Below are positions 557 to 13,517 of a DNA stretch of 64,000 nt, in pieces. The notes beneath the pieces were generated by a model. The model was not told the origin of the DNA. It did no database searches and saw only the letters and a list, made by a program, of their open reading frames with translations. The position numbers were made by a program, and so were the translations under genes. Numbering within the stretch: position 1 is the first letter of the stretch; the number at the start of each line of letters is the position of its first letter. The stretch covers positions 65,524 to 129,523 of the forward strand of contig CAVXTP010000017.1 in assembly GCA_963764715.1 (NCBI GenBank), written 5' to 3'. The stretch is from an uncultured Acidobacteriota bacterium. GTDB taxonomy: Bacteria > Acidobacteriota > Thermoanaerobaculia > UBA5066 > Gp7-AA6.

Positions 557-611
557 ACGAAGTTGTAGAGTATCATCCGCGTTTCTCTTCGGCGGGGGGG
601 TAGGAAATCGT

Positions 612-2561
612 ATGTCCATTCTGAGCCGGATCGAGGGTCCGAAGGACCTCAAGACACTCTCCTATGGAGAGTTAGCCGAGCTTTCGCAGGACTGCCGGGA
701 GGTGATCGTCCAGACGATCACGAAGACCGGAGGCCACCTCGCCTCCAACCTGGGAGTCGTCGAGCTGACCATCGCCCTCCACCGCGCTTTCGACAGCCCG
801 AAAGACCGCCTGGTCTGGGACACCTCCAACCAGTGCTACACCCACAAGCTGGTGACCGGTCGGCGCGACCAGTTCTCGACGATCCGCACCCCGGGGGGTC
901 TCTCGGGCTTCGCCGAGCCTTCCGAGAGCGACCACGACACCCTCGCCGCCGGCCACGCCGGCACCGGGCTCTCCTACGGCCTCGGTGTCTCGATGGCGCT
1001 CCAGGATCGATCCAACGAACCGTACGTCATCGTGATCGTCGGCGACGGCGCCCTGACGTCGGGCCCGTCGTACGAGGCGATGAACAACATCGTCCACGTC
1101 AAGCCCAAGCGGATGATCGTCATCCTGAACGACAACGGCTGGTCGATCTCCGAGAACGTGGGCTGGCTCGCCCACTGGCGCAACCGTTTCGAGCTTCACC
1201 CGACCTACCAGAAGTTCGTCGACGCGGGCCACAGCTTCTTCAAGCGCCTGCCCAAGGGCGACATGGCATGGGAGCTCGCGCGGAAGCTGAAGAGCTCGGT
1301 CGAGGGCCTCTTCTTCCCCAACCTCATCTGGGACGAGCTCGGATTCCACTACGTCGGCCCCGTCAACGGCCACGACTTCAGGGAGCTCGAGGAGGCGCTG
1401 GCCCGCGCCAAGGACGTCTCCGCCGACGGCACGCCCGTCGTCATCCACGCGCTGACGCACAAGGGCCGCGGGTTCCAGCAGGCCGAGCAGAACCCCTCGA
1501 AGTTCCACCAGCCGGGCACTCCGACCGGCCCGGGCGGCGCCGGCACCCGCTACACCTACTCCCAGGTCTTCGCGAAGACGCTCATCTCCATGATGGAGAA
1601 GGACCCCAAGATCGTGGCCTTCTCGGCGGCGATGCTCGAGGGGACCGGGTTGATCGAGGTCCAGAAGAAGTTCCCCGGCCGCGTGTTCGACGTCGGCATC
1701 GCCGAGGAGCACGCCGTGATCTGCGCCGGCGGCATGGCCAAGGAGGGCTGGAAGCCGGTCGTCTCCATTTACTCGACCTTCCTGCAGCGGTCCTTCGACC
1801 AGCTGATCCACGACGTGGCGCTCCAGAACCTGCCCGTCACGATCTGCGTCGACCGGGCCGGCCTCGTCGGCGACGACGGAAAGACGCACCAGGGCGTCTT
1901 CGACATCTCCTACACCCGGATGATCCCGAACATGACGATCGCCGCGCCCAAGGACGAGAACGAGCTGCAGCACGTCCTCCACACCGCGATCAATTCCGGG
2001 CGGCCGTTCGTGGTGCGCTACCCCCGCGGCCTGGCGCTCGGGGTCGAGCTCGACGCCGAGCTGAAGACCATGCCGATCGGGAAGGGCGAGATCCTGCGCG
2101 AGGGACGCGATCTGACCTTCATCGCGTACGGCTCGATGGTTTCGGTCGCGAGCGCCGCGGCCGCGGAGCTCGAGGGCCGGGGGCTCTCGGTCGGCGTCGT
2201 CAACGCGCGCTTCGCCAAGCCCCTCGACATGGACCTGCTCGCGAAGGTCGCCGGCTCCTGCCCGCGCCTGATGACGCTCGAGGAGCACCTGGCGGCCGGC
2301 GGCTTCGGCGCCGGCGTGCTCGAGGCGTTCCATGCCGGGGGGCTGCCGACGGCGGGGCTCAAGGTCCACGCGATCCCGGACCAGTTCATCGACCACAGCC
2401 CGCAGCTCCAGCAGCGCCACAACCTCAAGCTCGACGTCGAGGGCGTCGTCGAGAAGACTTTCGAGCTCTTCCCGGACCTCGCGCGCCCGGCCGCGGCCGC
2501 CGCCGGCGCCGGCGACCCGCGCAGCAAGAAGGAAAAATTCGCCGAGACGGTGAACTGGTGA
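612..2561 (+). CDS. dxs: 1-deoxy-D-xylulose-5-phosphate synthase
   Basis: ORF 345..2561 trimmed to the ATG at 612 (MSILSRIEGPKDLKTLSYGELAELSQDCREVIV...). It has the ThDP motif GDGALTSG...LNDNGWSIS and a transketolase-like C-terminal half (IAEEHAV, GLVGDDGKTHQGVFDISY). The 649-aa length is typical. Confidence 0.95.
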   Translation: MSILSRIEGPKDLKTLSYGELAELSQDCREVIVQTITKTGGHLASNLGVVELTIALHRAFDSPKDRLVWDTSNQCYTHKLVTGRRDQFSTIRTPGGLSGFAEPSESDHDTLAAGHAGTGLSYGLGVSMALQDRSNEPYVIVIVGDGALTSGPSYEAMNNIVHVKPKRMIVILNDNGWSISENVGWLAHWRNRFELHPTYQKFVDAGHSFFKRLPKGDMAWELARKLKSSVEGLFFPNLIWDELGFHYVGPVNGHDFRELEEALARAKDVSADGTPVVIHALTHKGRGFQQAEQNPSKFHQPGTPTGPGGAGTRYTYSQVFAKTLISMMEKDPKIVAFSAAMLEGTGLIEVQKKFPGRVFDVGIAEEHAVICAGGMAKEGWKPVVSIYSTFLQRSFDQLIHDVALQNLPVTICVDRAGLVGDDGKTHQGVFDISYTRMIPNMTIAAPKDENELQHVLHTAINSGRPFVVRYPRGLALGVELDAELKTMPIGKGEILREGRDLTFIAYGSMVSVASAAAAELEGRGLSVGVVNARFAKPLDMDLLAKVAGSCPRLMTLEEHLAAGGFGAGVLEAFHAGGLPTAGLKVHAIPDQFIDHSPQLQQRHNLKLDVEGVVEKTFELFPDLARPAAAAAGAGDPRSKKEKFAETVNW

Positions 2562-3538
2562 ACGTGCCGGGCGACTTCTCCGGAATCCGGGTCGAGAAGC
2601 TCCTGATCGCGGGCCTGCGCGGCTTCTGCGCCGGCGTCGTCCGCGCGATCGACGTCGTCGAGAAGGCCCTCGAGGCGATCGACGGGCCCGTCTACGTGCG
2701 CAAGGAGATCATCCACAACCGCTACGTCGTCGACGAGCTGCGCGACAAGGGCGCCCGCTTCGTGGAGGAAGTCGACGAGGTCCCGGACAACGCCTCGCTC
2801 ATCTTCTCGGCCCACGGCATCGCGCCCCAGGTCCGCGCCCTCGCCCAGCAGAAGCGGCTGCAGACGATCGACGCGACCTGCCCGCTCGTCACGAAGGTGC
2901 ACCTCGAGGCCATCCACTACGCCAAGCAGGGCTACACGATCATCCTCGTCGGCCACCACGATCACGACGAGACGGTCGGCACGCTCGGCGAGGCGCCGGA
3001 CGCGATCCGCCTGGTCGAGACGCGCGAGGACGCCGAGAAGGTCACGGTGCCGGACCCCGACCGCGTGGCGTACCTGACGCAGACGACGCTCTCGATCGAC
3101 GACACGCGCGACATCCTCGCCGTCCTGAAGCGACGGTTCCCGAACCTGAAGGCCCCCTCGAAGCAGGACATCTGCTACGCCACGCAGAACCGCCAGGACG
3201 CCGTCAAGGCGATGGCGCCCCACGTCGACATGCTGCTGGTGCTCGGGGCGCCGAACTCCTCCAACTCGCTCCGGATGTGCGAGGTCGCCCGCGCCAACGG
3301 GGTCGCGTCGCACCTGATCGAGCGCGCCCGGGACATCCGGCCGGAGTGGCTCCAGGGCGTCCGGGTCCTCGGTCTCACCGCCTCGGCGTCGGCCCCCGAG
3401 ATCCTGGTCCAGGAGGTCGTGACCTTCGCGCGCGAGAAGCTCGGAGTCTCGGTCGTCGAGGAGTTCGAGACCGTCAAGGAAGACGTCCACTTCCCGCTGC
3501 CCCAGGAGTTGAAAGCCCTTCTGCCCGTCAGAGTCTGA
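2558..3538 (+). CDS. ispH: 4-hydroxy-3-methylbut-2-enyl diphosphate reductase
   Basis: This is the 3' part of ORF 833..3538, starting VNVPGDFSGIRVEKLLIAGLRGFCAGVVRAIDVVE... The three cluster-ligand cysteines sit in their usual contexts (GFCAGV, ATCPLVTKVH, ICYATQNRQ). The GTG at 2558 overlaps the dxs stop (GTGA). Confidence 0.93.
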   Translation: MNVPGDFSGIRVEKLLIAGLRGFCAGVVRAIDVVEKALEAIDGPVYVRKEIIHNRYVVDELRDKGARFVEEVDEVPDNASLIFSAHGIAPQVRALAQQKRLQTIDATCPLVTKVHLEAIHYAKQGYTIILVGHHDHDETVGTLGEAPDAIRLVETREDAEKVTVPDPDRVAYLTQTTLSIDDTRDILAVLKRRFPNLKAPSKQDICYATQNRQDAVKAMAPHVDMLLVLGAPNSSNSLRMCEVARANGVASHLIERARDIRPEWLQGVRVLGLTASASAPEILVQEVVTFAREKLGVSVVEEFETVKEDVHFPLPQELKALLPVRV

Positions 3539-3554
3539 CGCGTCGGGATCCGGC

Positions 3555-4652
3555 ATGACTCTCCCCACCGCGCCCGTCGCGGCCCCCCGCGGCATTTCGA
3601 AGCTGTCGGACGGCGGGTCGCGCCCCTCGGGCGCGCGACCGCGGGCCGGGCGGATCGCTCTCTTCGCCGCCGGCCTCGTCGTCCTCGGCGCCGGGCTCGC
3701 GCTCGTCGGCTGGACGCCGATCGCCGAGAACCTCGCCCGCATCGGCCCTTACTTCGTCCTGCTCGTCGGCCTCTACGCGGCCGCGCAGATCGCGTTCACG
3801 CTCGGCTGGTGGGTGATCGCCGGCCGGCGCGGCCCGGCGTCGTTCCGGGACCTCTTCGCCGCGTATCTCGCGGGCGACTCGATCAACTACTTCACGAGCG
3901 TCGGCGGCGAGCCCGTCAAGGCCCACCTGCTGCGCGGAAAGATGGGCTTCGGCCCGGCCTTCGCCACGATCTGGGTCAACCGCAACGCGGACGTGCTCGC
4001 GCAGTGGCTCTTCCTCGTCGCCGGAGCGGCCGTCGCGCTGACCCGGTATTCCCTGCCGCCGCTGCCCCGCTTCCTCGTGATCGCCGGCCTGACGGTGCTC
4101 GGCGCGCTCGCGCTCGGGTTCACCGGCATGCAGCGGCGGGGATTCTTCGGGCCGATCCTGAGGCTCCTGAAGAAGGTCCCGCTCCTCGAGAAGCGGCTGT
4201 CGGGGCTCGAGACGCATGCCGAGGAAGTCGACGCGCGGATCCGGCTCTATTACCGGAGCGAGGAGCACGGCCTGCAGTTCGCGATCGCCGTCGTCTGGGG
4301 CTTCCTCGGCTGGTGCGGCGGCCTCGTCGAGACGTGGATCGTCCTGAGGCTGCTCTCCCCGACCCACACGTTCGCATCGGCCTTCGCGGTCGAGTCGCTG
4401 GCGATGATCCTGAACGGCATCCTGCTCTTCATTCCGGCCCGGATCGGGAGCGCCGAAGCCATCCGCCTCGGAGTCGCGGCGCTCGTGGGCCTGACGCCCG
4501 CACAGGGCGCGGCCTACGCGCTCGTCCGGCGGGCCCGCGAGCTGCTGTGGCTCGCGCCGGGGGGCGTCGTGCTCCTGAAGCACCATTTGATCGACGTGGC
4601 GCACTTGCGGCTCGAGCGGCTGGAGCCCTCGGGCCGGGAGGCGCGGCCATGA
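3555..4652 (+). CDS. polytopic membrane protein, MprF-type 'LPG-synthase TM region'/flippase-like family
   Basis: A 365-aa ORF starting 16 nt after the ispH stop, with about 8 hydrophobic helices (IALFAAGLVVLGAGLALVGW, YFVLLVGLYAAAQIAFTLGWWVIA, ...). The GGEPVKAHLL loop and overall layout resemble the flippase-like UPF0104 family. This is recognition from memory, not a search. Confidence 0.7.
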   Translation: MTLPTAPVAAPRGISKLSDGGSRPSGARPRAGRIALFAAGLVVLGAGLALVGWTPIAENLARIGPYFVLLVGLYAAAQIAFTLGWWVIAGRRGPASFRDLFAAYLAGDSINYFTSVGGEPVKAHLLRGKMGFGPAFATIWVNRNADVLAQWLFLVAGAAVALTRYSLPPLPRFLVIAGLTVLGALALGFTGMQRRGFFGPILRLLKKVPLLEKRLSGLETHAEEVDARIRLYYRSEEHGLQFAIAVVWGFLGWCGGLVETWIVLRLLSPTHTFASAFAVESLAMILNGILLFIPARIGSAEAIRLGVAALVGLTPAQGAAYALVRRARELLWLAPGGVVLLKHHLIDVAHLRLERLEPSGREARP

Positions 4653-4749
4653 CGGGCTTCTACGGTAACCTTCCCGCCGTGTGCGCCGACGTCCGGATCG
4701 CACGCCGCCTGACGGCTCGCGCCGAAGAGGCCGCGCGGGGGATCGTCCC

Positions 4750-5439
4750 GTGAGCGCGATCGTCTCGGGCGCGGTCATCGCGGCCGGAGAGGGCTCCCGG
4801 CTGAAGCAGTTCGGCGTGCCCAAGCCTCTCCTCGAGGTCGCGGGGGTGCCGCTGATCGAGCACGTCCTGTCGAACTTCGAGGCCGCCGGGATCGCGTCGG
4901 CGGCGGTCATCTTCAACGAGTCCGAGCGGGACTGCGAGGCCTTCGTCCGCGAGCGCTTCGGGCGGCTCGTCCAGACCGTGCTCGTGAAGACGACGCGCTC
5001 CTCGCTCGAGAGCTTCCGGGCCGTGCTCGAGGTCGCCCCGAAGGGGCGGCTGCTCGTGTCGACCGTGGATGCGTTCTGCCCGCGGAAGGACTTCGTCCGC
5101 TTCGTCGAGCACGCCGGGGAGCTGCCGTCCCATTCCACCGTCCTCGCCGTGACCCGTTTCGTCGACGACGAGAAGCCCCTCTGGGTCAACGTCGCACGGC
5201 ATGGCCGGGTCTCGTCGATCGGCGGATCGACCGGCGACGCCGTGACCGCCGGGATCTACGTCTTCCCGGAGAGGGTCCGGCAGCTCGGCGTTCCGCCGGA
5301 GCTCGGGCGGCTGCGGGACTTCCTCGCGTGGCTCGCGAAGTCCGGCGAGCCGATCCAGGCCCTCGAGATCGAAAAGGTCGTCGACGTCGACCGCGCCGAG
5401 GACCTCGCCGTGGCCGAAGAGCTGGCGGCGGCGCGATGA
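4750..5439 (+). CDS. NTP-transferase (sugar/alcohol-phosphate nucleotidylyltransferase) domain protein
   Basis: The GTG at 4750 lies inside ORF 4681..5439. The N-terminus VSAIVSGAVIAAGEGSRLKQFGVPKPLLEVAGVPLIEHVL carries the G-x-G-x-R-L ... K-P-L nucleotidyltransferase signature. Confidence 0.8.
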   Translation: MSAIVSGAVIAAGEGSRLKQFGVPKPLLEVAGVPLIEHVLSNFEAAGIASAAVIFNESERDCEAFVRERFGRLVQTVLVKTTRSSLESFRAVLEVAPKGRLLVSTVDAFCPRKDFVRFVEHAGELPSHSTVLAVTRFVDDEKPLWVNVARHGRVSSIGGSTGDAVTAGIYVFPERVRQLGVPPELGRLRDFLAWLAKSGEPIQALEIEKVVDVDRAEDLAVAEELAAAR

Positions 5440-6305
5440 CGGGCTCCGCGCCGCGCTGCTGGGGCGTCTACCGGGAGCTCGCCCATTCGCCCGGCCGCGA
5501 GACCGACGACGCCGACATCCTGCGCGCGACGGGCGAGGAGCTGGCGGCGCGCGGGTTCGACGTCTCGCTCAAGACGACCGAGGAGCTGCCCGAGGCGGGG
5601 GACTTCGCTTCGGTGCCCCCGTTTCTCTTCGTCATGTGCGAGCGGGTCCCCGTCGTCGAAACGCTCGCGGCCTGGGAGCGGCGCGGCGCGCGGATCCTCA
5701 ACCGCCCGGCCGGCATCCGCAACACCGACCGCGAGCGGACCCTCGACCTCTTCGGGCGGCACGGCGTCCCGCACCCCCGAAGCGTCCTCGTCGAGACCGG
5801 GAAGGGCGACGCGGCGTTCCCCGGGGAGTGCTGGATCAAGCGCGGCGACGTCCACGCGACCGAGGCCGGCGACGTCGCCTTCGCCGGCGATCCCGGCGGG
5901 TTCGCCACGCACCTCGAGCGCTTCGCCGCCCGCGGGATCCTCTGCGCGGTCGTCCAGGACCACGTCCCGGGCGACCTGATCAAGTTCTACGGCGTCGCCG
6001 GCCTCGACGATCCGCCCGGCCGGCCGTCCTGGTTCCAGTGGTTCTACCACCGCGACCAGGCGCTCGCGAGCCACCCGTTCGACGCGTCCGCCCTGGAGGC
6101 GGCCACGGCCCGCGCCGCCGCCGCGCTCTCGCTCGAGGTCTACGGCGGCGACGCGATCGTGTCCGCGGACGGCCGCATCCACGTCATCGATCTGAACGCC
6201 TGGCCGAGCTTCGCGCTCTTTCGCGGCGTGGCCGCGGCGAAAATCGCGGCCCTGCTCGCCGCGCGCTTCTCCCGCGCCGGCGCCCCGCTCGAGGCCTCCC
6301 GATGA
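5436..6305 (+). CDS. ATP-grasp fold enzyme (ligase or ITPK-like kinase)
   Basis: The ATG at 5436 overlaps the upstream stop (ATGA). ATP-grasp hallmarks are present: RILNRPAGIRNTDRERT, CWIKRGDVH, VVQDHVPGDLIKFYGV. The C-terminal metal-binding motif is IHVIDLNAWPSF. Confidence 0.7.
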   Translation: MTGSAPRCWGVYRELAHSPGRETDDADILRATGEELAARGFDVSLKTTEELPEAGDFASVPPFLFVMCERVPVVETLAAWERRGARILNRPAGIRNTDRERTLDLFGRHGVPHPRSVLVETGKGDAAFPGECWIKRGDVHATEAGDVAFAGDPGGFATHLERFAARGILCAVVQDHVPGDLIKFYGVAGLDDPPGRPSWFQWFYHRDQALASHPFDASALEAATARAAAALSLEVYGGDAIVSADGRIHVIDLNAWPSFALFRGVAAAKIAALLAARFSRAGAPLEASR

Positions 6306-7639
6306 CCGAGGTCCGCCACCGCATCGAGGTCGGGCCGCGCTCGAAGGCGATCGTCGACCTGGAGCAGCGTCACATGGCGCCGGGCCTGCAGTCCTTCGCC
6401 CTGTACTCGGGGCTCGCCATGGCGCGCGGCCAGGGAAGCCGGATCTTCGACGAAGACGGCAACGGCTACGTCGACTTCATCGCCGGGATCGCCGTGGGCT
6501 CCGTCGGCCACTGCCACCCCTATTACGTGAAGGCGCTCCAGGACCAGGCCGCGAAGCTGACGTTCGGCAGCTTCACGACCGAGGTCCGCGCGAAGTTCCT
6601 CAACCTCCTCGGAAGCGTGACTCCCCCCGGCCTGACCCGCATCCAGCTCTTCTCGGGCGGCGCGGAGGCGGTCGAGGCGGCCTTCCGCCTCGCCAAGGCC
6701 GTCACGAAGAAGTTCGAGTTCGTCGGATACTCCGGCGCCTTCCACGGCAAGACCGGCGGCGTCCTGCCGCTCCTGTGGGGCGACTTCAAGGAGGGGCTCG
6801 GCCCCTTCGTCCCCGGCACGTACTCGGCGCCCTACGCCTACTGCTACCGCTGCCCGCTCCAGCTGACCTACCCCGACTGCGGGATCGCCTGCGCGGAAGA
6901 GACGCGCGACGTGATCCGCAACCAGACCGGCCGGCAGGTCGCCGCGATCATCGTCGAGCCGATGCAGGGCACCGCGGGCAACGTGATTCCCCCGCCGGGC
7001 TTCCTGTCCGCCGTCCAGGCGATCGCGAAGGAGAACGGCGCCCTCTTGATCGCCGACGAGATGATCACGGGCTTCGGGCGCACCGGGACGTTCTGGGGGG
7101 TCGAGCACGACGGCGTCGTCCCCGACGTCATGACGTGCGGCAAGGGCATCGGCGGCGGCTTCCCGCTCGCGGCCGTCGTCTCGACCGACGCACTGACGGC
7201 CGCGAAGCCCTGGTCGAACCCCTCGGGCAGCTCCTCCTCGTACGGCGGTAACCCGCTCGGCTCGGCGGCGGGGCTCGCGGCCCTCGAGATCATCACGCGC
7301 GAGAACCTCGTCGAGAACTCGCGCCGCGTCGGGGCCGCCATGCTCGCGCGCCTCCAGGCCATGCAGGAGAAGCACCGCGTCATCGGCGACGTCCGCGGGA
7401 AGGGCCTCCTCCTCGGCCTCGAGCTCGTGAAGGACCGGACGTCGAAGGAGCTGGTGCCGAAGGACTTCGCGAGGGCGCTCTTCCAGGAGTGCCTGCGGCG
7501 CGGCCTTCTGGCGATGTCCTACTCGCCCGTCATCCGCATCAACCCGCCGCTCTCGATCGACGAGGCGACCGCGCTCGAGGGGCTCGAGATCCTCGACGAG
7601 GCGATCGGCGCGACGGCGCGCGATTGGAAGCTGGCATGA
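6302..7639 (+). CDS. class-III (aspartate aminotransferase family) PLP aminotransferase
   Basis: The ATG at 6302 overlaps the upstream stop (ATGA). Motifs include SGGAEAVEAAFRLAK, IVEPMQGTAGNVIPP, and DEMITGFGRTGTFWGVEH...TCGKGIGGGFP, where the PLP lysine is in CGK. Confidence 0.9.
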   Translation: MTEVRHRIEVGPRSKAIVDLEQRHMAPGLQSFALYSGLAMARGQGSRIFDEDGNGYVDFIAGIAVGSVGHCHPYYVKALQDQAAKLTFGSFTTEVRAKFLNLLGSVTPPGLTRIQLFSGGAEAVEAAFRLAKAVTKKFEFVGYSGAFHGKTGGVLPLLWGDFKEGLGPFVPGTYSAPYAYCYRCPLQLTYPDCGIACAEETRDVIRNQTGRQVAAIIVEPMQGTAGNVIPPPGFLSAVQAIAKENGALLIADEMITGFGRTGTFWGVEHDGVVPDVMTCGKGIGGGFPLAAVVSTDALTAAKPWSNPSGSSSSYGGNPLGSAAGLAALEIITRENLVENSRRVGAAMLARLQAMQEKHRVIGDVRGKGLLLGLELVKDRTSKELVPKDFARALFQECLRRGLLAMSYSPVIRINPPLSIDEATALEGLEILDEAIGATARDWKLA

Positions 7640-7829
7640 GGACACGATCCGGCCGGTCCTCCCGGCCCCGGTCCGCGGCGCGAGTAGTCTCCCGAAGTAA
7701 CCGAGGGAGGAGGCTCGCGCCGCGGGAGCGAGCGCGCAGCGAGGGACCAGGCCCGCGGTCGAGCCGGCAGCCCGGCGAGCCGCGGGCCGGTGGCGACAGC
7801 CAGGTCCCGAGAGAGCGCTCGCGACGGTC

Positions 7830-8867
7830 ATGTTGAAGGGCGCGCTCCTCGGCTTCGGGCACGTCGCCGCGGAAGGCCACGTCCCCGGGTGGCTCGCCCG
7901 GAAGGACATCGAGATCGTCGCCGCGGCCGACGCGCGGCCCGGGCGAAGCACGGCGTTCTTCGAGACGTTTCCGCAGGGCCGCTGGTACACGACGGTCGAG
8001 GACCTCCTCGCGAAGGAGTCGCTCGACTTCGTCGACGTCTGCACGCCTCCCGCCTCCCACGCGATGATCGTGCGGCAGGCGCTCGCGCGCTCGCTCCACG
8101 TGCTCTGCGAGAAGCCCCTCGTCGTGTCTCCGATCGAGCTCCGGGGCCTGCCCGCGCTGTCGGCCGAGAAGGAGCGCGCGGTCGTCACGGTGCACAACTG
8201 GCGCTACGCGCCCGCCGTCGTCCGCATCGGCGAGATTCTCTCCGCCGGCGCGCTCGGCGAGATCCGGCGCGTGCGCTGGCAGACGCTCCGCAACAAGCCC
8301 GCCGCGAGCGTGGGCGAGGCCGACAACTGGCGCGTCGACCCGGCGCAGTCCGGCGGCGGCATCCTCGTCGACCACGGCTGGCACGCCCTCTACGTGGTCT
8401 CGGGCTGGATGGGCGCGGCGCCGCGCACCGTCGCGGCGTCCCTCGAGACGCGCAAGCACCACGAGTGGCCGATCGAGGACACCGCCGACCTCTTCCTCGT
8501 CTACCCGGCGGCCTCGGCCGAGATCCTGCTGACCTGGGCGGACCCGGAGCGGTCCAATCGCGCCGAGATCACCGGGACCCGGGGGGTCCTCCGGCTCGAC
8601 GGCGGCCGCCTGACGCTCTTCGACGCGGACGGGAAGCGGCCGAAGGACGAATGGACCGTGCCCTCGCTCTCCGAGGGCTCGCATCACCCCGACTGGTTCT
8701 CCGGCGTCATCGAGAGCTTCTTCGACGAGGTCGCCGACGCGAAGTGGCGCGGGCGCAACCTCGCCGAGGCGACGCTCTGCGCCAACGTGCTCGCCCTCGC
8801 GCGCGAGTCGAGCCGGCAGGGCGGCGTGCCCCTGCCGGTCGAGCGCATGGCGGGCACGCGACGGTGA
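7830..8867 (+). CDS. Gfo/Idh/MocA family NAD(P)-dependent oxidoreductase
   Basis: A 345-aa ORF with an N-terminal Rossmann fold (MLKGALLGFGHVAAEGHVPGW) and the motifs DVCTPPASHAMIV and EKPL. The C-terminal alpha/beta domain is typical of inositol/sugar dehydrogenases. Confidence 0.85.
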   Translation: MLKGALLGFGHVAAEGHVPGWLARKDIEIVAAADARPGRSTAFFETFPQGRWYTTVEDLLAKESLDFVDVCTPPASHAMIVRQALARSLHVLCEKPLVVSPIELRGLPALSAEKERAVVTVHNWRYAPAVVRIGEILSAGALGEIRRVRWQTLRNKPAASVGEADNWRVDPAQSGGGILVDHGWHALYVVSGWMGAAPRTVAASLETRKHHEWPIEDTADLFLVYPAASAEILLTWADPERSNRAEITGTRGVLRLDGGRLTLFDADGKRPKDEWTVPSLSEGSHHPDWFSGVIESFFDEVADAKWRGRNLAEATLCANVLALARESSRQGGVPLPVERMAGTRR

Positions 8868-9879
8868 GCCGCGTCCTCGTCCTCGGGCCCCCGGAGGGGC
8901 CGCCCGGAGTCGCGCCCGAATCGGTCCTCCTCGGACTGCCGATCGTGCGGCGGACGGCCCTCGCGGCCCGGCGCGCCGGCTTCGAGGAGATCGCGGTGAT
9001 CGAGCCGCCGCTTCCCGTCCTCGCCGCCCTCGTGGGCACCGACACCGAGGCGCTCGCCGAGGCGCCGCCCGACGCCGTGCGGATGGACTGGAACCGCGTC
9101 GTCGCGGTCCGCGACCTCGAGGCGATCCGCGACGGCGCGGCGCCCGCGTCGGTCGGCGTCGCGGTCGATTCCCCGGCCGATTTCCGGCGCGCCGAAGACC
9201 ACCTGCTCGCGAGCCTCGTCAAGGACACCGAGGGATTCATGTCGCGCCACGTCGAGCGCAAGATCTCGCTCGCGGTCAGCCGGCGCCTCGCCGCGACGAC
9301 GGTCACGCCGAACGCCATGACGCTTCTCTCGGTCTCGATCGGCCTCTTCGGGGCGACCTTCTTTCTCGACAGCACGGCGGCGAGCCAGACCGCGGGGGCC
9401 CTCCTCTTCCTGCTCCATTCGATCCTCGACGGCTGCGACGGCGAGCTCGCGCGACTGAAGTTCCAGGAGTCGCGCTCCGGCGGCCTGCTCGACTTCTGGG
9501 GAGACAACATCGTGCACGTCGCGGTCTTCGCGGCGATCGCGGCCGGCTGGAGCCGCGCGGTCGGCGCCGCGTGGCCGCTCGCGTTCGGCGCCCTCGCGGT
9601 CGGGGGCGCGCTCGCGTCCGCCTTCCTGGTCTACTCCCGCACGATGGCGGCGCCCCGCGAGGGGCCGCTCTACACCTCGGTCGCGACGGCCGCCGAGACT
9701 CGGCTTTCACGCGCTGCCGACGCCCTCTCACGGCGCGACTTCATCTACCTCGTTCTGATACTGTCCGCCTTCGGCAAGGCTGCCTGGTTCCTCGTTCTCA
9801 CGGCCGTCGGAGCGCCGGTTTACTTTCTCGTGCTGACGGCGATCGCGCTGGCCGAAAGACGCCGCCCAAGGAGTGCCTG

Positions 9880-9880
<1 letters not shown>
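8864..9880 (+). CDS. CDP-alcohol phosphatidyltransferase family protein with ~125-aa soluble N-terminal domain (AF2299/DIPP-synthase-like architecture)
   Basis: The GTG at 8864 overlaps the upstream stop (GTGA). The signature D-G-x2-D-G-x2-A-R-x8-G-x3-D-x3-D is intact (LDGCDGELARLKFQESRSGGLLDFWGDN), there are 6 hydrophobic helices, and a soluble N-domain precedes them (VSRVLVLGPPEG...LLGLPIVRRTALAARRAGFEEIAVI). Confidence 0.85.
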
Positions 9881-11229
<1,349 letters not shown>

Positions 11230-11245
11230 TTCGACTCCTTGGGCC

Positions 11246-11270
11246 GAGGGCGGCCGCCAGGGCCGCCCCT
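11246..11270 (+). terminator. GC-rich hairpin after the MIPS stop (AGGGCGGCC-GCCA-GGGCCGCCCCT), no U-tract
   Basis: A near-perfect inverted repeat read directly from the sequence, 17 nt after the TAG at 11227-11229. The core is shared with the hairpins at 44417-44440 and 48036-48058. Confidence 0.35.
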
Positions 11271-11330
11271 ACTCTTGAGGTGGCGGATGTTAAGCCCGGG
11301 CAGAGTAGGGGCGGGGCTTGTCCCCGCCCT
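11257..11330. repeat. composite palindromic element upstream of dinB (CCAGGGCCGCCCCTAC ... GTAGGGGCGGGGCTTGTCCCCGCCCT)
   Basis: CCGCCCCTAC at 11263-11272 is the reverse complement of GTAGGGGCGG at 11305-11314. The second unit also folds on itself (GGGGCGGGG/CCCCGCCC). The same two units recur at 12534-12626. Confidence 0.6.
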
Positions 11331-11356
11331 CTGACAGGCACAAACTCTCCCGCTGC

Positions 11357-12439
11357 GTGACCCTCCGCCGCATCCTGCACGTCGACATGGACGCGTTCTA
11401 CGCGTCCGTCGAACAGCGCGACGATCCGTCGTTGAAGGGCCGGCCGGTCGCGGTGGGCGGTTCTCCGGAGAGCCGCGGGGTGGTCGCGGCGGCGAGCTAC
11501 GAGGCGCGCAAGTTCGGCGTGCGTTCCGCCATCCCGATGGCCCGGGCCGTGCGGCTGTGCCCGGAGCTGACGATCCTGCGCCCGGACTTCAAGAAGTACG
11601 CGGCCGTCTCCGAGCAGGTCTTCGGCATCTTCCGCAGCGTGACGCCGCTCGTCGAGCCGCTCTCGCTCGACGAGGCGTATCTCGACGTCACGGAGAACTC
11701 CCTCGGCCTGCCGCTCGGCGTCGAGGTGGCGCGGCACCTCAAGCGGCGGATCCACGAGGAGACCCGCCTGACCGCCTCGGCCGGGGTCGCGCCGAACAAG
11801 TTCCTCGCCAAGATCGCCTCGGGCTGGAAGAAGCCGGACGGCCTGACCGTGATCGCGCCGGAGCGCGTCGAGCGGTTCCTCCAGGAGCTCCCGGTCGACG
11901 CCCTCTGGGGCGTCGGTCCCGTGACGGCCGGCCGGCTCCGGGCCGCCGGGATCCACCGTCTCGTCGACGTGCGCACCGCGCCGGCCGACGTGCTCCAGCG
12001 GGCCGTCGGAAGCTGGGCGGAGTCGCTCCGCCGCCTTTCCTTCGGCGAGGACGACCGGACGGTGGAGCCCAACCGGGAGCGCAAGTCGATCGGCTGCGAG
12101 GAGACGTACGCGAAGGACCTCCAGGACCTCGCGGCGATCGCGGGCGAGGTCGAGCGGCTGGCCCGCCGCACCGCCTCGATCCTCGAACGCAAGGCGCTCT
12201 TCGCGCGCACGGTGACGCTCAAGCTGCGATACGCCGACTTCACGACGATCACCCGGAGCGGCACGCAGGACCCCGCCTCGCGCGACGCCGACGGGATCGC
12301 CGCAAGGGCGGCCGCGCTGCTGGCGAAAACCGAGGCGGGAACCCGCCCGGTCCGCCTGCTCGGCGTCTCCGTCCACGGTCTCGCCTCCGAGCCCACCCCC
12401 GATGACGCCGAGCCGGACGATCTCCTGCCGCTCTCGTGA
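11357..12439 (+). CDS. dinB: DNA polymerase IV (Y-family translesion polymerase)
   Basis: VTLRRILHVDMDAFYASVEQRDDPSLKGRPVAVGG... has the same N-terminal layout as E. coli DinB (MRKIIHVDMDCFFAAVE). SLDEAYLDVT is also present. I trimmed the track start (a TTG at 11318, which lies inside a hairpin) to the GTG at 11357. Confidence 0.93.
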   Translation: MTLRRILHVDMDAFYASVEQRDDPSLKGRPVAVGGSPESRGVVAAASYEARKFGVRSAIPMARAVRLCPELTILRPDFKKYAAVSEQVFGIFRSVTPLVEPLSLDEAYLDVTENSLGLPLGVEVARHLKRRIHEETRLTASAGVAPNKFLAKIASGWKKPDGLTVIAPERVERFLQELPVDALWGVGPVTAGRLRAAGIHRLVDVRTAPADVLQRAVGSWAESLRRLSFGEDDRTVEPNRERKSIGCEETYAKDLQDLAAIAGEVERLARRTASILERKALFARTVTLKLRYADFTTITRSGTQDPASRDADGIAARAAALLAKTEAGTRPVRLLGVSVHGLASEPTPDDAEPDDLLPLS

Positions 12440-12533
12440 CTGCGCTCGCGGCGCGGCCCCGAGGGCGGCCGCAAGCCGGCCACCGGAGGCAGGCCCCCGA
12501 CCGTAGGCAACGCCGGCCGTAGGCCGGCGGTAA

Positions 12534-12626
12534 CCCAGGGCCGCCCCTACGACGGGGTTCAATACGGGAGTTCAAGATGTCGCGGGATCGCTCTGGTCGT
12601 AGGGGCGGGGCTCGTCCCCGCCCTAC
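12534..12626. repeat. second copy of the composite palindromic element, downstream of dinB; overlaps the stop codon of the convergent gene
   Basis: CCCAGGGCCGCCCCTAC lies at 12534-12550 and GTCGTAGGGGCGGGGCTCGTCCCCGCCCTAC at 12596-12626. The stop codon (cta, 12623-12625) of the minus-strand peptidase-like gene sits inside the hairpin. This is probably a bidirectional terminator. Confidence 0.6.
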
Positions 12627-13477
12627 TTCCCTGTCGTAATTCCTTTTCGAATGGAGGCGAGCGGCGCGGCGTCGTCGTAGACGGTCCGGCGGCCGTCCGC
12701 CGAGACGCCGAGCTCCTTCCACAGGGCCTCGAGGTCCACTCTGGTCGCCGCCTTTCCGAGCTTCGCGTAGAGCTCCGACAGGACCGGCACCCCCGTGGCG
12801 CGGTCGCCCGCCGCGAGGGCGCGCTCGATCGGCCACGAGACCGTGACGTTGCCCCCGGCCCTCACGATCCCGCGGAGCGCGTCGTCGAGCGATTTCCGGT
12901 TCCCCGTCCGCCTGCGGATCTCGACGTCGGCGAGAAAGCAGAAGGCGGCGCCTCCCCAGTACGTCGAGCCCCAGCTCCGGGCCTCGTCGAGGCCCGTGCT
13001 CCCGATCCCCTCGATCCCCTTCGGCAGGCCCCACAAGAGCCAGCGCCAGATCTCGTCCGGAGCGATGAGTCCCGCGCGGGCGCGGGCGAGCGGCTCGACG
13101 TACGTCGCGAGCCCTTCCTCGATCCACTCGTGGCCCGTCATCGAGGGAAAGGCGAGGTGCACCATCTCGTGGACGAGCACCCAGCTCGTCGCGAGGTCCT
13201 CGGCCGTGGTGTCTTCGCCGGCGGTGATCACGATCGCGGCCCGCCCCCGGTCGCCGAACGTGCGGCCCCCGGCGATCCCCCCGGCGCGGCCGGTGCGGAT
13301 CGTCAGGTCGACGCTCTCGACCGGGAACCCGCCGTAGTACACCGCCACGGCGCGAGCGGCTTTCCCGACCCACGCGAGCAGGTCGGCGCGCGACGGCGAG
13401 TCGCCGGCGCCCGCGAACGACACCTCGATCGTTCCGCCGGGAACCTCGATTCGGGAATCCGCCGGGGTCGCGAGCAA
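12623..13477 (-). CDS. MA-clan (gluzincin) zinc-metallopeptidase-like protein, probably secreted
   Basis: HEMVH plus a downstream EEGLATYVE form an HExxH...E zinc site, of the peptidase_MA-like type. The TTG at 13477 is the first canonical start, but a signal-peptide-like RRPSAILSLALAAALLA is encoded in frame just upstream (see finding). Confidence 0.75.
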   Translation of the reverse strand: MLATPADSRIEVPGGTIEVSFAGAGDSPSRADLLAWVGKAARAVAVYYGGFPVESVDLTIRTGRAGGIAGGRTFGDRGRAAIVITAGEDTTAEDLATSWVLVHEMVHLAFPSMTGHEWIEEGLATYVEPLARARAGLIAPDEIWRWLLWGLPKGIEGIGSTGLDEARSWGSTYWGGAAFCFLADVEIRRRTGNRKSLDDALRGIVRAGGNVTVSWPIERALAAGDRATGVPVLSELYAKLGKAATRVDLEALWKELGVSADGRRTVYDDAAPLASIRKGITTGK

Positions 13478-13517
13478 GGCCGCCGCGAGCGCCAGGGAAA
13501 GGATCGCCGAGGGCCTT

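What the first reader, a model, noticed from the sequence alone, without database searches (positions are those of the whole stretch)
4750..9880. Split cytidylyltransferase / CDP-alcohol transferase arrangement: an intact stand-alone NTP-transferase, plus a transferase whose N-domain looks like a degenerate nucleotidyltransferase
Seen: the 8864-9880 protein has the complete catalytic signature (DGCDGELAR-x8-GGLLDFWGD). About 125 soluble residues precede it (LLGLPIVRRTALAARRAGFEEIAVI). These resemble the beta-alpha-beta start of a nucleotidyltransferase fold but lack the G-x-G-x-R-L signature. A separate gene at 4750-5439 retains that signature (AAGEGSRLK...KPLL).

Established knowledge: hyperthermophile IPCT/DIPPS enzymes fuse both activities. 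Archaeoglobus AF2299 has a similar short cytosolic domain.

Inference: CDP-inositol (or a CDP-aminocyclitol) may be made in trans and handed to the membrane enzyme.
Basis: partly seen in the sequence, partly recalled or inferred. Interest (0 to 1): 0.5.

Follow-up and report, generated by a model that had tools for sequence, protein, structure and literature searches.

The report
Split inositol-activating enzyme pair in operon
A membrane phosphotransferase carrying a dead remnant of a nucleotide-activating domain sits in a conserved eight-gene operon with an intact stand-alone version of that enzyme and an inositol-phosphate synthase. The operon probably builds an unknown (amino)inositol-phosphate compound, and in other soil-bacterial phyla it lies inside hopanoid lipid gene clusters.

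Summary

- **G (8864-9880)** is a six-helix CDP-alcohol phosphotransferase with the full D-x2-D-G-x2-A-R-x8-G-x3-D-x3-D motif.
- **C (4750-5439)** is a complete NTP-transferase. Its best full-length solved relative is Archaeoglobus inositol-1-phosphate cytidylyltransferase.
- **G's closest solved relative** is Archaeoglobus AF2299, which has the same two-domain architecture. The architecture itself is therefore already known.

The context appears to be undescribed. C and G belong to a translationally coupled module: HpnL-like membrane protein, (HAD phosphatase, absent here), NTP-transferase, RimK-like ATP-grasp enzyme, class-III aminotransferase, Gfo/Idh/MocA dehydrogenase, G and inositol-phosphate synthase. 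This module recurs in Acidobacteriota, Nitrospirota, Methylomirabilota, Alphaproteobacteria and Chloroflexia. Outside Acidobacteriota it often lies beside shc, hpnN and true hpnL.

The most likely function is synthesis of a CDP-activated (amino)inositol made in trans and transferred by G. The product is unknown: a membrane or hopanoid-associated head group is slightly favoured over a DIP-like solute. No biochemistry has been tested.

The parts
612..2561 (+). dxs (1-deoxy-D-xylulose-5-phosphate synthase). It lies directly upstream, and this position is conserved in Acidobacteriota.
   Evidence: tblastn gives 75% identity to the dxs of L001 over its full length. L001's gene carries the Pfam DXP_synthase_N and transketolase domains. 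dxs plus ispH precede the module in 28 of 29 Acidobacteriota loci.
2564..3538 (+). ispH / lytB (HMBPP reductase), the last step of the MEP isoprenoid pathway.
   Evidence: Pfam LYTB 3.8e-90. NCBIfam NF002190 scores 428 bits against a cutoff of 389.
3555..4652 (+). B: HpnL-like, flippase-like polytopic membrane protein (LPG_synthase_TM family).
   Evidence: Pfam PF03706 6.9e-26. The best NCBIfam match is HpnL TIGR03476 at 118.7 bits, below the 195.65 cutoff. A B homolog lies beside G in 46 of 51 loci. The alphaproteobacterial counterpart passes the HpnL cutoff at 303 bits.
4750..5439 (+). C: intact stand-alone NTP-transferase, the putative cyclitol-phosphate cytidylyltransferase. The signature AAGEGSRL is at nt 4780-4803 and KPLL at 4822-4833.
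   Evidence: Pfam NTP_transf_3 2.1e-13. The ortholog profile's best full-length PDB matches are A. fulgidus IPCT 2xme at 1.2e-10 and 4mnd at 3.4e-10. The signature residues are invariant. The stop codon overlaps the start of D.
5436..6305 (+). D: ATP-grasp enzyme of the RimK/LysX type with no Pfam hit. It is either a carboxylate-amine ligase or, less likely, an inositol-type kinase.
6302..7639 (+). E: class-III (GABA/ornithine-type) PLP aminotransferase.
   Evidence: Pfam Aminotran_3 3.3e-100. Present in 41 of 51 loci.
7830..8867 (+). F: Gfo/Idh/MocA NAD(P)-dependent dehydrogenase acting on secondary alcohols of sugars or cyclitols.
   Evidence: Pfam GFO_IDH_MocA plus C-terminal domains. PDB relatives include glycoside 3-dehydrogenases, scyllo-inositol dehydrogenase and inositol 2-dehydrogenase. 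The stop codon overlaps the start of G.
8864..9229 (+). G, residues 1-122: truncated cytidylyltransferase-like domain without the catalytic signature.
9230..9880 (+). G, residues 123-338: juxtamembrane helix plus a six-helix CDP-alcohol phosphotransferase domain. The catalytic motif is at nt 9428-9505.
   Evidence: Pfam PF01066. Profile against PDB: AF2299 2.2e-32, IPCT/DIPPS 1.6e-24, PIP synthases 1e-12 to 4e-7. The motif is invariant. Six hydrophobic segments are seen. A conserved Arg-rich loop (R283, R290, R291, D292) lies before TM5.
9880..11229 (+). [quoted passage not shown]
   Evidence: Pfam NAD_binding_5 2.5e-95 and Inos-1-P_synth 1.1e-31. The start codon abuts the stop of G. A MIPS lies beside G in 44 of 51 loci. 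In Alphaproteobacteria, Chloroflexia and Rokubacteria-like loci it is replaced by the non-orthologous short type.

Best explanation
C and G are the two halves of a split IPCT/DIPPS-type system, and they work inside a larger conserved operon.

**Proposed pathway**
1. MIPS (H) converts glucose-6-phosphate into inositol-3-phosphate.
2. The dehydrogenase F and the aminotransferase E turn one ring hydroxyl into an amine, through an inosose intermediate. This happens either before or after activation.
3. C, a catalytically complete NTP-transferase, condenses CTP with the (amino)inositol phosphate to give a CDP-cyclitol.
4. G is an AF2299-type six-helix CDP-alcohol phosphotransferase. Its N-terminal domain is a shrunken, catalytically dead remnant of the cytidylyltransferase domain of a fused ancestor. 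G transfers the cyclitol-phosphate to an acceptor alcohol. The acceptor is probably phosphorylated, because G has a conserved Arg-rich loop and most relatives carry a HAD phosphatase in the operon.
5. The RimK-like ATP-grasp enzyme D adds a carboxylate to the amine, or possibly phosphorylates the cyclitol.
6. The HpnL-like membrane protein B handles the product at the membrane.

The remnant domain most likely serves as a structural brace on the membrane domain, as in AF2299. It may also be a docking site for C.

**Shown:** gene structure, motifs, folds, translational coupling and cross-phylum co-occurrence.
**Inferred:** all substrates, the order of steps, the acceptor and the final product.
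For: **Genes, motifs and folds**
- Motifs and domains are confirmed.
- The N-domain fold is confirmed.
- Homology of the N-domain to the region after the G-x-G-x-R loop of fused enzymes that keep the signature is confirmed.
- The N-domain shares local similarity with that of AF2299: KLLGLTLRERIEKTLQRAGFD against VLLGLPIVRRTALAARRAGFE.
- G ranks AF2299 (2.2e-32) above DIPPS (1.6e-24), and both far above PIP synthases. It therefore resembles enzymes that use soluble CDP-alcohols (PMC4634129).
- C's best full-length solved relative is IPCT.

**Operon structure**
- Stop and start codons overlap or abut at C/D, D/E, F/G and G/H.

**Co-occurrence in 51 loci with at least 6 kb on both sides of G**

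| Gene | Loci |
|---|---|
| B | 46 |
| any NTP-transferase | 44 |
| MIPS | 44 |
| D | 42 |
| F | 42 |
| E | 41 |
| HAD | 35 |

- MIPS is kept even where its type is swapped for a non-orthologous one.
- A MIPS-NTP_transferase fusion protein lies next to G in L058 and L068.
- D has an ATP-grasp fold closest to RimK/LysX.
- F resembles cyclitol and sugar secondary-alcohol dehydrogenases.

**Precedent**
- An unconfirmed MIPS + NTP-transferase + CDP-alcohol transferase + HAD cluster, with an LPG-synthase-like neighbour, has been proposed for Bacteroides/Prevotella species that do make inositol lipids (PMC9246714).
Against: - No enzyme activity was tested, and nucleotide and substrate specificity cannot be read from sequence.
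- C matches IPCT only weakly as a single sequence: 0.0067 to 2xme and 1.7e-7 to the NCBIfam IPCT half.
- Some loci (L043, L060, L071) hold a second, more IPCT-like transferase as well as C. C may therefore activate something other than plain inositol phosphate.
- Three loci (L038, L069, L081) keep D but lack E and F. This does not fit D being an amine-acylating ligase.
- The window's clade has no HAD gene in the operon.
- Profile-profile comparison of the N-domain with C is not significant (probability 5.7%).
- Four alphaproteobacterial loci have hpnN-MlaA-B-G but no NTP-transferase or MIPS within 10 kb.
- The 82 loci are the best 80 of at least 499 confirmed hits plus two looked up separately (L002 duplicates L003). 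They are biased towards relatives of this G protein.
Confidence: 0.6

Rival explanations
1. The module makes a soluble compatible solute of the di-myo-inositol-phosphate (DIP) type, perhaps an amino- or acyl-amino derivative. C acts as IPCT. G acts as a DIPP-synthase-like enzyme joining CDP-inositol to inositol-3-phosphate. HAD removes the remaining phosphate. The membrane protein B and the hopanoid or isoprenoid neighbours are then coincidental, or B exports the solute.
For: - G's closest characterised relatives, DIPPS and AF2299, are stated not to process lipids. Six-helix CDP-alcohol phosphotransferases are described as using soluble acceptors (PMC4634129; similarity).
- The Arg-rich loop conserved in G and the HAD phosphatase in 35 of 51 loci fit a phosphorylated soluble acceptor, as in the DIPP to DIP step.
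- MIPS is universal.
- A true fused IPCT/DIPPS-like gene is present in L043.
Against: - B, a flippase-like polytopic membrane protein, accompanies G in 46 of 51 loci.
- G lies beside hpnN, MlaA, hpnL or shc in 13 of 22 non-acidobacterial loci drawn from three phyla.
- In Bacteroidetes the comparable cluster is linked to inositol lipids.
- By established knowledge, DIP is a solute of hyperthermophiles, whereas these are soil and groundwater MAGs.
Confidence: 0.25
2. G is an ordinary phosphatidylinositol-phosphate synthase that uses CDP-diacylglycerol plus inositol-3-phosphate. HAD is the PIP phosphatase. C is an unrelated sugar-1-phosphate nucleotidyltransferase that, with D, E and F, serves a separate amino-sugar pathway.
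For: - G belongs to the same superfamily as PIP synthases, with significant similarity (6wm5 7.8e-13, 6h53 3.5e-7).
- MIPS plus a phosphatase plus a CDP-alcohol transferase is the mycobacterial and Bacteroides PI route.
- C also matches sugar-1-phosphate nucleotidyltransferases.
- F's best NCBIfam match is UDP-GlcNAc 3-dehydrogenase.
Against: - G scores 39 bits against the NCBIfam PIP-synthase model, whose cutoff is 170. It is much closer to AF2299 and DIPPS.
- A dedicated NTP-transferase accompanies G in 44 of 51 loci, which a CDP-diacylglycerol user would not need.
- MIPS-NTP_transferase fusions lie next to G.
- G keeps a remnant of a cytidylyltransferase domain, as DIPPS-type enzymes do.
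- Codon overlap links F to G and G to MIPS in one translational unit.
Confidence: 0.08
3. The N-terminal extension of G is not derived from a nucleotidyltransferase. It would be a generic Rossmann-like soluble domain, or else still catalytically active.
For: - Sequence searches of the domain alone are weak. Profile hits against PDB reach only E about 0.09, and hhalign against C is not significant.
Against: - Six of the nine weak PDB sequence hits are cytidylyltransferases aligned at the equivalent position.
- The profile finds fused enzymes that keep the signature, with the match placed just after their G-x-G-x-R loop.
- The domain is about half the size of a working transferase. It lacks the G-x-G-x-R/K loop in all 52 homologs and in all other phyla examined.
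Confidence: 0.03

Closest known systems
AF2299 of Archaeoglobus fulgidus (PDB 4O6M/4O6N/4Q7C), a CDP-alcohol phosphotransferase with an N-terminal cytidylyltransferase-like domain
   Same: - It is G's best solved relative (profile E 2.2e-32).
- It has the same two-domain architecture: a soluble cytidylyltransferase-like domain, a juxtamembrane helix and six membrane helices.
- The catalytic stretch is almost identical: HSIIDGCDGEIARLKFMESK against HSILDGCDGELARLKFQESR.
- The N-domains share the LLGL...RAGF and S..DL..AE..LL.SLIK motifs.
   Different: - AF2299 is archaeal and hyperthermophilic, and its physiological reaction is not established. It was crystallised with CDP-glycerol.
- The window protein is bacterial, from soil Acidobacteriota, and its N-domain is shorter (about 122 residues).
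- It is encoded in an operon with MIPS, an NTP-transferase, an aminotransferase, a dehydrogenase and an ATP-grasp enzyme. The genomic context of AF2299 was not examined here.
Bifunctional IPCT/DIPPS of (hyper)thermophiles (A. fulgidus AF0263, PDB 4MND; NCBIfam NF041135)
   Same: - The membrane domain and linker align (1.6e-24).
- C aligns with the IPCT domain over its full length (3.4e-10).
- Taken together, C plus G reproduce the domain content of the fusion.
   Different: - G scores 102 bits against the family model, whose cutoff is 580.
- G's N-domain is half-sized and lacks the catalytic loop. The active transferase is a separate gene four genes upstream.
- The operon adds amination and ATP-grasp steps and a flippase-like protein, none of which has a counterpart in DIP synthesis.
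Putative alternative inositol-lipid cluster of Bacteroides vulgatus and Prevotella (Heaver et al. 2022, PMC9246714)
   Same: - The core gene set is the same: MIPS, an NTP-transferase-domain protein, a CDP-alcohol phosphatidyltransferase and a HAD hydrolase, with an LPG-synthase-like gene nearby.
- The proposed logic is the same: CDP-inositol is made first and then transferred.
   Different: - That pathway is itself unconfirmed.
- No aminotransferase, dehydrogenase or ATP-grasp genes are described there.
- Sequence relatedness to the Bacteroides proteins could not be tested with these tools.
- The window lacks the HAD gene.
Bacterial phosphatidylinositol-phosphate synthases (RsPIPS 5D92, M. tuberculosis PgsA1 6H53)
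   Same: The superfamily, the catalytic motif and the six-helix topology are shared, and the inositol comes from MIPS.
   Different: - Similarity is much weaker (1e-12 to 4e-7), and G scores below the NCBIfam cutoff.
- PIP synthases have no native N-terminal soluble domain and need no dedicated cytidylyltransferase, because they use CDP-diacylglycerol.
Hopanoid (hpn) loci and the uncharacterised HpnL family
   Same: - B belongs to the HpnL/LPG_synthase_TM family.
- In Alphaproteobacteria the protein beside G is a true HpnL (303 bits against a cutoff of 195.65), next to a true HpnN (1236 bits against 1100) and an MlaA-type lipoprotein.
- In Methylomirabilota and Rokubacteria-like loci, and in one alphaproteobacterium, shc (with hpnE in L070) is adjacent.
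- In Acidobacteriota dxs and ispH are adjacent. ispH is a regular member of hpn clusters by established knowledge.
   Different: - There is no shc, hpnN or hpnH in this 64-kb window.
- B here scores below the HpnL cutoff.
- No known bacteriohopanepolyol carries an inositol phosphate. Two recent surveys do not mention inositol.
scyllo-inosamine routes (streptomycin and rhizopine biosynthesis); comparison from established knowledge, not tested here
   Same: The chemical logic is shared: myo-inositol is oxidised by a Gfo/Idh/MocA-type dehydrogenase to an inosose and then transaminated to an inosamine.
   Different: Those pathways use DegT/StsC-type aminotransferases rather than a class-III enzyme. 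They involve no CDP activation and no membrane phosphotransferase.

Membership tests
CDP-alcohol phosphotransferase (Pfam PF01066), for G | Signature D-x2-D-G-x2-A-R-x8-G-x3-D-x3-D on membrane helices 2-3 | tested here: met
   The motif is D189-G-C-D192-G193-E-L-A196-R197-(8)-G206-G-L-L-D210-F-W-G-D214. All motif residues are invariant in 52 homologs. The Pfam hit scores 49 bits against a cutoff of 22.
CDP-alcohol phosphotransferase (Pfam PF01066), for G | Polytopic membrane protein; six helices in the prokaryotic class | tested here: met
   A hydropathy scan gives segments at about 150-170, 173-190 (carrying the motif), 216-235, 236-259, 292-312 and 310-332. The protein aligns with six-helix AF2299 and DIPPS. 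No full-length structural model was made.
AF2299-type architecture (cytidylyltransferase-like domain plus CDP-alcohol phosphotransferase), for G | An N-terminal soluble domain with a nucleotidyltransferase-like fold, joined by a juxtamembrane helix to the membrane domain | tested here: met
Bifunctional IPCT/DIPPS (NCBIfam NF041135), for G | A full-length, catalytically competent cytidylyltransferase domain (G-x-G-x-R loop, about 230 residues) fused to DIPPS, scoring above the family cutoff | tested here: not met
   The score is 102 bits against a cutoff of 580, and only residues 99-316 match. The N-domain is about 122 residues and has no G-x-G-x-R in any of 52 homologs.
Phosphatidylinositol-phosphate synthase (NCBIfam NF045883 / NF052561), for G | A score above the family cutoff, and use of CDP-diacylglycerol | tested here: not met
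   NF045883 scores 39 bits against a cutoff of 170, and there is no hit to the BT_1523 model. Substrate use cannot be tested here.
CTP:inositol-1-phosphate cytidylyltransferase (IPCT), for C | A nucleotidyltransferase fold with the G-x-G-x-R-(L)...K-P signature | tested here: met
   The sequence is AAGEGSRLK...PKPLL. G13, G15, R17, L18, K25 and P26 are invariant. Pfam NTP_transf_3 scores 51 bits against a cutoff of 27.
CTP:inositol-1-phosphate cytidylyltransferase (IPCT), for C | Specific relatedness to characterised IPCTs and specificity for CTP and inositol-1-phosphate | tested here: inconclusive
   With the ortholog profile, the best full-length PDB matches are IPCT 2xme (1.2e-10) and 4mnd (3.4e-10), but mannose-1-phosphate guanylyltransferase follows at 1e-9. 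The single sequence gives only 0.0067. A second transferase type in related loci is far more IPCT-like. Specificity needs an assay.
HpnL (TIGR03476), for B | A score above the curated cutoff, and location in a hopanoid locus | tested here: not met
   The window protein scores 118.7 bits against a cutoff of 195.65, and there is no shc or hpnN in the window. The counterpart beside G in alphaproteobacterial locus L049 scores 303 bits. A true HpnN lies beside G in other alphaproteobacterial loci such as L055.
ATP-grasp superfamily (RimK/LysX branch), for D | The ATP-grasp fold with nucleotide and Mg-binding residues | tested here: met
Bacteroides vulgatus-type alternative inositol-lipid cluster (Heaver 2022) | MIPS, an NTP-transferase, a CDP-alcohol phosphatidyltransferase and a HAD hydrolase clustered together | tested here: inconclusive
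   MIPS, an NTP-transferase, a CDP-alcohol transferase and an LPG-synthase-like gene are present. HAD is absent from the window but present in 35 of 51 related loci. Orthology to the Bacteroides proteins could not be tested.

The most novel reading that the evidence does not exclude
The module makes a new class of membrane lipid: a phospho-(amino)inositol head group, possibly N-acylated by the ATP-grasp enzyme. The head group would be attached to a bacteriohopanepolyol or another isoprenoid or glycerolipid alcohol. G would be the head-group transferase, and the long-unexplained HpnL-family protein would be its flippase or partner. That would give HpnL its first function and predict an unrecognised inositol-bearing hopanoid or lipid in abundant soil and nitrogen-cycle bacteria (Acidobacteriota, Nitrospira, Methylomirabilis, Rhizobiales).
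Probability: 0.2. Interest if true: 0.8.

Novelty: new variant of a known kind. Interest (0 to 1): 0.55.

Why it matters
- **The pairing is not new in principle.** A dead cytidylyltransferase remnant on the membrane enzyme, together with an intact stand-alone transferase, is already known structurally from AF2299. By established knowledge, split IPCT and DIPPS genes also occur in some thermophiles.
- **The module around the pair appears to be undescribed.** MIPS, activation, transfer, oxidation, amination and an ATP-grasp step, together with an HpnL-like membrane protein, are conserved with translational coupling across at least five phyla of mesophilic environmental bacteria.
- **It predicts an unknown aminoinositol-phosphate metabolite or lipid head group.**
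- **It links inositol chemistry to hopanoid loci for the first time.** The neighbours include shc, hpnE, hpnN, MlaA/HpnS-like and MlaC/HpnM-like genes and true hpnL.
- **It offers a testable handle on HpnL.** Recent papers still call its function unknown.
- **It corrects an annotation.** Public annotation of G as 'phosphatidylglycerophosphate synthase' is probably wrong.

Tried and rejected
- **hhalign of the N-domain profile against the C profile.** It aligned at the expected place but was not significant (probability 5.7%), so it is not used as evidence of homology.
- **N-domain profile against PDB sequences.** Only sub-threshold hits were found (E at least 0.087). Six of nine were cytidylyltransferases at the right position, which is suggestive only.
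- **Structure prediction of D from locus-derived orthologs.** It was redone with database homologs.
- **Exact-sequence lookup of the window's own G protein.** It found no contig.
- **Rfam scan of the whole window.** No hit.
- **Promoter and terminator scan of 1-13600.** Nothing above the shuffle expectation, so the operon boundaries rest on spacing and codon overlap only.
- **Literature searches.** None found a description of this module. The searches covered inosamine phospholipids, MIPS plus CDP-alcohol transferase plus aminotransferase clusters, hpnL plus inositol, and shc plus MIPS.
- **Papers not held.** Sciara 2014 (AF2299) and Rodrigues 2007 (IPCT/DIPPS) could not be read. Statements about split IPCT/DIPPS genes in thermophiles and about AF2299's substrates rest on Clarke 2015 and on general knowledge.
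- **dxs-ispH adjacency as proof of a hopanoid link in Acidobacteriota.** This was rejected as proof. No shc lies within 10 kb in any of 29 acidobacterial loci, and whole genomes could not be searched.
- **MIPS-NTP_transferase fusions as direct evidence about C.** This was rejected. C shares only its first ~70 residues with that transferase type. The fusions support G pairing with an inositol-phosphate transferase in general.

Full report
**1. What is in the sequence**

The window has about 70% G+C, so raw ORF lists are unreliable. A third-position G+C frame plot and translations resolve one co-directional row of genes on the + strand.

| Gene | Coordinates | Identity |
|---|---|---|
| dxs | 612-2561 | DXP synthase |
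| ispH | 2564-3538 | HMBPP reductase |
| B | 3555-4652 | HpnL-like membrane protein |
| C | 4750-5439 | NTP-transferase |
| D | 5436-6305 | ATP-grasp enzyme |
| E | 6302-7639 | class-III aminotransferase |
| F | 7830-8867 | Gfo/Idh/MocA dehydrogenase |
| G | 8864-9880 | CDP-alcohol phosphotransferase |
| H | 9880-11229 | inositol-phosphate synthase (MIPS) |
| dinB | 11387-12439 (approx.) | DNA polymerase IV |

Stop and start codons overlap or abut at C/D, D/E, F/G and G/H. Pfam and NCBIfam give these assignments:
- B is LPG_synthase_TM. Its best named match is HpnL, below the cutoff.
- C is NTP_transf_3.
- D has no Pfam family.
- E is Aminotran_3.
- F is Gfo/Idh/MocA.
- G is CDP-OH_P_transf. 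Its best named match is the DIPPS half of bifunctional IPCT/DIPPS, at 3e-29.
- H is myo-inositol-1-phosphate synthase.

**2. Checking the observation**

Both sequence statements hold.
- G residues 189-214 read DGCDGELARLKFQESRSGGLLDFWGD (nt 9428-9505). This is the complete family motif, and it is invariant in 52 homologs.
- C begins MSAIVSGAVIAAGEGSRLKQFGVPKPLLEVAG. The G-x-G-x-R-L and K-P residues are invariant in 25 orthologs.
- The first ~122 residues of G precede a juxtamembrane helix and six hydrophobic segments. They have no G-x-G-x-R. The loop after the first strand is proline-rich instead.

**3.

- IspD, CMP-NeuAc synthetase and LicC;
- the T. maritima and A. fulgidus IPCTs;

The domain is about half the length of a working transferase. 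It keeps the first strand-helix-strand units and the C-terminal helix that runs into the juxtamembrane helix.

Sequence-only tests on the domain were weak:
- The profile against PDB gave E at least 0.087. Six of the nine hits were cytidylyltransferases aligned at the equivalent position.
- hhalign against the C family aligned P18-P49 with P26-E57, the expected place, but without significance.

A full HMMER scan of 1.84 billion representative proteins with the domain profile closed the gap. It found only 185 proteins at E up to 1e-3. Among them are fused NTP_transferase plus CDP-alcohol transferase proteins that still carry the signature. The match falls just after their G-x-G-x-R loop:
- P0356 (E 7e-6): IIAAGQGNRIRR...PKPLRKLLGLTLLKRIVLSAKRAGIEEF;
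- P0372 (E 3e-5).

The same scan found P0368, which has a full-length N-domain without the signature. In other phyla the N-domain of G orthologs is about 185 residues and also lacks the signature.

The family therefore shows a graded series:
1. active and fused;
2. full-length but dead;
3. shortened;
4. the ~122-residue stub seen here.

The stub still has invariant residues (L23, G24, P26, R29, R30, R37, G39, N77, D106). It evolves faster than the membrane part, averaging 54% against 73% identity. It is a retained, non-catalytic domain and not decaying sequence.

**4. What G and C are closest to**

With the family profile, G matches:
- AF2299 at 2.2e-32;
- IPCT/DIPPS at 1.6e-24;
- PIP synthases at only 1e-12 to 4e-7.

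The catalytic stretch is nearly identical to that of AF2299. The N-domains also share LLGL...RAGF and the S..DL..AE..LL.SLIK linker.

Clarke et al. 2015 (PMC4634129) state three relevant points:
- AF2299 and AfDIPPS both have an N-terminal cytidylyltransferase-like domain.
- Neither enzyme processes lipids, and AF2299 binds CDP-glycerol.
- Six-helix enzymes use soluble acceptors.

G is a bacterial AF2299-type enzyme.

It fails the membership tests for bifunctional IPCT/DIPPS (102 bits against a cutoff of 580, with no catalytic loop) and for PIP synthase (39 bits against 170).

With its ortholog profile, C has A. fulgidus IPCT as its best full-length solved relative: 2xme at 1.2e-10 and 4mnd at 3.4e-10. 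Sugar-1-phosphate transferases follow closely, and the single sequence is weak.

**5. The surroundings change the picture**

G has more than 3000 database homologs. The nearest 120 are all about 338 residues long, and those that carry a name are from Thermoanaerobaculia (Acidobacteriota) MAGs. Public annotation calls them 'phosphatidylglycerophosphate synthase'.

Two look-ups and a scan of one genome per species gave 82 loci. I annotated them by tblastn and Pfam.

Counts below are for 51 non-redundant loci with at least 6 kb on both sides of G.

| Gene beside G | Loci (of 51) |
|---|---|
| B | 46 |
| any NTP-transferase | 44 |
| MIPS | 44 |
| D | 42 |
| F | 42 |
| E | 41 |
| HAD phosphatase | 35 |

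- The HAD phosphatase usually lies between B and C. The window's own clade lacks it.
- The order B-HAD-C-D-E-F-G-H, with overlapping codons, is kept in Acidobacteriota, Nitrospirota and Methylomirabilales.
- In Alphaproteobacteria and Chloroflexia the arrangement is MIPS-HAD-C-D-E-F on one strand, converging on G. In Alphaproteobacteria B lies on the other side of G.
- In those lineages the MIPS is the non-orthologous short type. Keeping the function while swapping the gene is strong evidence that inositol phosphate is the pathway's input.
- In L058 (Rhodospirillales) and L068 (Zetaproteobacteria) a MIPS-NTP_transferase fusion protein lies next to G. This links G-type enzymes directly to nucleotide activation of inositol phosphate.

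That fused transferase belongs to a second, more IPCT-like type. Its matches to the NCBIfam IPCT half are 1e-19 to 7e-72, against 1.7e-7 for C. It shares only the first ~70 residues with C.

Some loci have both types (L043, L060, L071). C travels almost strictly with D, E and F, and usually with HAD. This suggests that C may be specialised for the modified (aminated) cyclitol phosphate.

**6. The other enzymes**

- **F.** F resembles dehydrogenases for secondary alcohols of sugars and cyclitols. These include scyllo-inositol and inositol 2-dehydrogenases and glycoside 3-dehydrogenases.
- **F and E together.** With the class-III aminotransferase E, F gives the standard hydroxyl to ketone to amine conversion. 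This is the logic of scyllo-inosamine formation (established knowledge).

**7. Link to hopanoid and isoprenoid loci**

*In other phyla*
- In Methylomirabilales and Rokubacteria-like loci (L043, L047, L060, L071), squalene-hopene cyclase and an HpnM-like MlaC protein lie a few kilobases upstream of B. In L043, shc is the adjacent gene.
- In alphaproteobacterial L070 the order is hpnE-shc-MIPS-HAD-C-D-E-F on one strand.
- In at least 13 alphaproteobacterial loci G is preceded by a hopanoid transporter HpnN and an MlaA lipoprotein. In L055, HpnN scores 1236 bits against an equivalog cutoff of 1100.
- The protein between these genes and G scores 303 bits against the HpnL model cutoff of 195.65 in L049.
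- Nitrospirales L041 has HpnN, MlaA and MlaC nearby.

*In Acidobacteriota, including the window*
- None of these hopanoid genes lies within 10 kb.
- dxs and ispH precede B in 28 of 29 loci.

*Literature*
- Two recent hopanoid surveys state that the function of HpnL is unknown, and neither mentions inositol or CDP-alcohol transferases.
- Further searches found nothing linking the two.
- In Bacteroidetes, an LPG-synthase-like gene accompanies both the proven and the putative inositol-lipid clusters (PMC9246714).

**8. Most likely mechanism**

1. MIPS supplies inositol-3-phosphate.
2. F and E aminate the ring, either before or after activation.
3. C makes the CDP-cyclitol.
4. G transfers cyclitol-phosphate to an acceptor.
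5. HAD, where present, removes a phosphate. That phosphate is either on the acceptor, as in the DIPP to DIP or PIP to PI steps, or on inositol-3-phosphate to give free inositol for F.
6. D adds a carboxylate or a phosphate.
7. B acts on the product at the membrane.

My confidence is about 0.6 for this outline. The substrates, the order of steps and the product are inferred.

*Evidence bearing on the product*
- **For a soluble phosphorylated acceptor, and so a DIP-like solute (rival, 0.25):** enzyme-family knowledge, the conserved Arg-rich loop in G and the HAD gene.
- **For a membrane-bound product:** the near-universal flippase-like partner, the embedding in hopanoid loci and the Bacteroidetes precedent.
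- **Against an ordinary PIP-synthase reading (0.08):** the similarity ranking, the constant presence of a dedicated transferase and the MIPS-transferase fusions.

**9. Caveats**

- The loci are the best 80 of at least 499 confirmed hits, so they are biased towards relatives of this protein.
- Taxon labels are those of the MAG records. One 'Patescibacteria' label (L080) is probably a binning error, given its near-identity to a Methylomirabilis locus.
- Apparent E-F-G or F-G fusion proteins in the database (P0278, P0288, P0281) may be gene-calling artefacts caused by the overlapping codons.
- No full-length model of G was made, and its donor and acceptor pockets were not analysed.

**10. Verdict**

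The structural interpretation is correct, but it describes an architecture already known from AF2299.

The functional inference is well supported by context and remains untested. The evidence favours a CDP-aminocyclitol at least as much as CDP-inositol.

The new element is the conserved eight-gene aminoinositol-phosphate module and its recurrent association with HpnL and hopanoid loci. I rate it a new variant of a known kind, with interest 0.55.

Noticed in passing
window 32565-34346 (-): A full-length Peptidase_M2 (angiotensin-converting-enzyme family) protein of 593 aa, with a Pfam E-value of 4.8e-228, in an Acidobacteriota MAG.
   Followed up: no
window 24263-26455 (-) and 26482-28641 (-): Two adjacent paralogous proteins of about 720 aa, each with an IPT/TIG domain and a C-terminal S-layer-homology domain. 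They suggest cell-surface proteins anchored in the S-layer manner.
   Followed up: no
window 49345-55271 (+): A co-directional run containing a flavin amine oxidase-like gene (49345-50595) and two cyclopropane-fatty-acyl-phospholipid-synthase-like methyltransferases (51533-52603 and 54204-55271). It is probably a separate lipid-modification cluster.
   Followed up: no
window 7640-7829: A 190-nt non-coding gap between E and F inside an otherwise tightly coupled operon. It has no Rfam match and no promoter or terminator consensus. The equivalent gap in the 92%-identical relative L002 is about 110 nt.
   Followed up: partly
L043:13290-14783 (+): A Methylomirabilales locus carries a true fused NTP_transferase plus CDP-alcohol transferase (497 aa; NCBIfam IPCT/DIPPS 7e-72) about 2 kb downstream of the AF2299-type G and its module. 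Two related phosphotransferases therefore coexist in one locus.
   Followed up: partly
L058:11048-12937 (-) and L068:10-1145 (-): MIPS fused to an IPCT-like NTP-transferase in one 629-aa protein, lying next to a G-type gene. In L058, G is also preceded by a radical-SAM gene and a metallophosphoesterase gene.
   Followed up: partly
L061:1045-5055 and L076:8416-12464: A minimal alphaproteobacterial variant: a divergent HpnL-like gene, then G, an IPCT-like NTP-transferase and a PhyH-family dioxygenase. It has no C, D, E or F.
   Followed up: partly
L001:12424-17209 (+): In a relative with 61% identity, two large YfhO-family membrane glycosyltransferase-like genes follow MIPS directly, where the window has dinB. 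One other locus (L017) has a YfhO homolog.
   Followed up: no
window 8864-9880 and database homologs: Public annotation names this family 'phosphatidylglycerophosphate synthase' (JGI) or generic 'CDP-alcohol phosphatidyltransferase family protein' (NCBI). The evidence here suggests the first name is wrong.
   Followed up: yes
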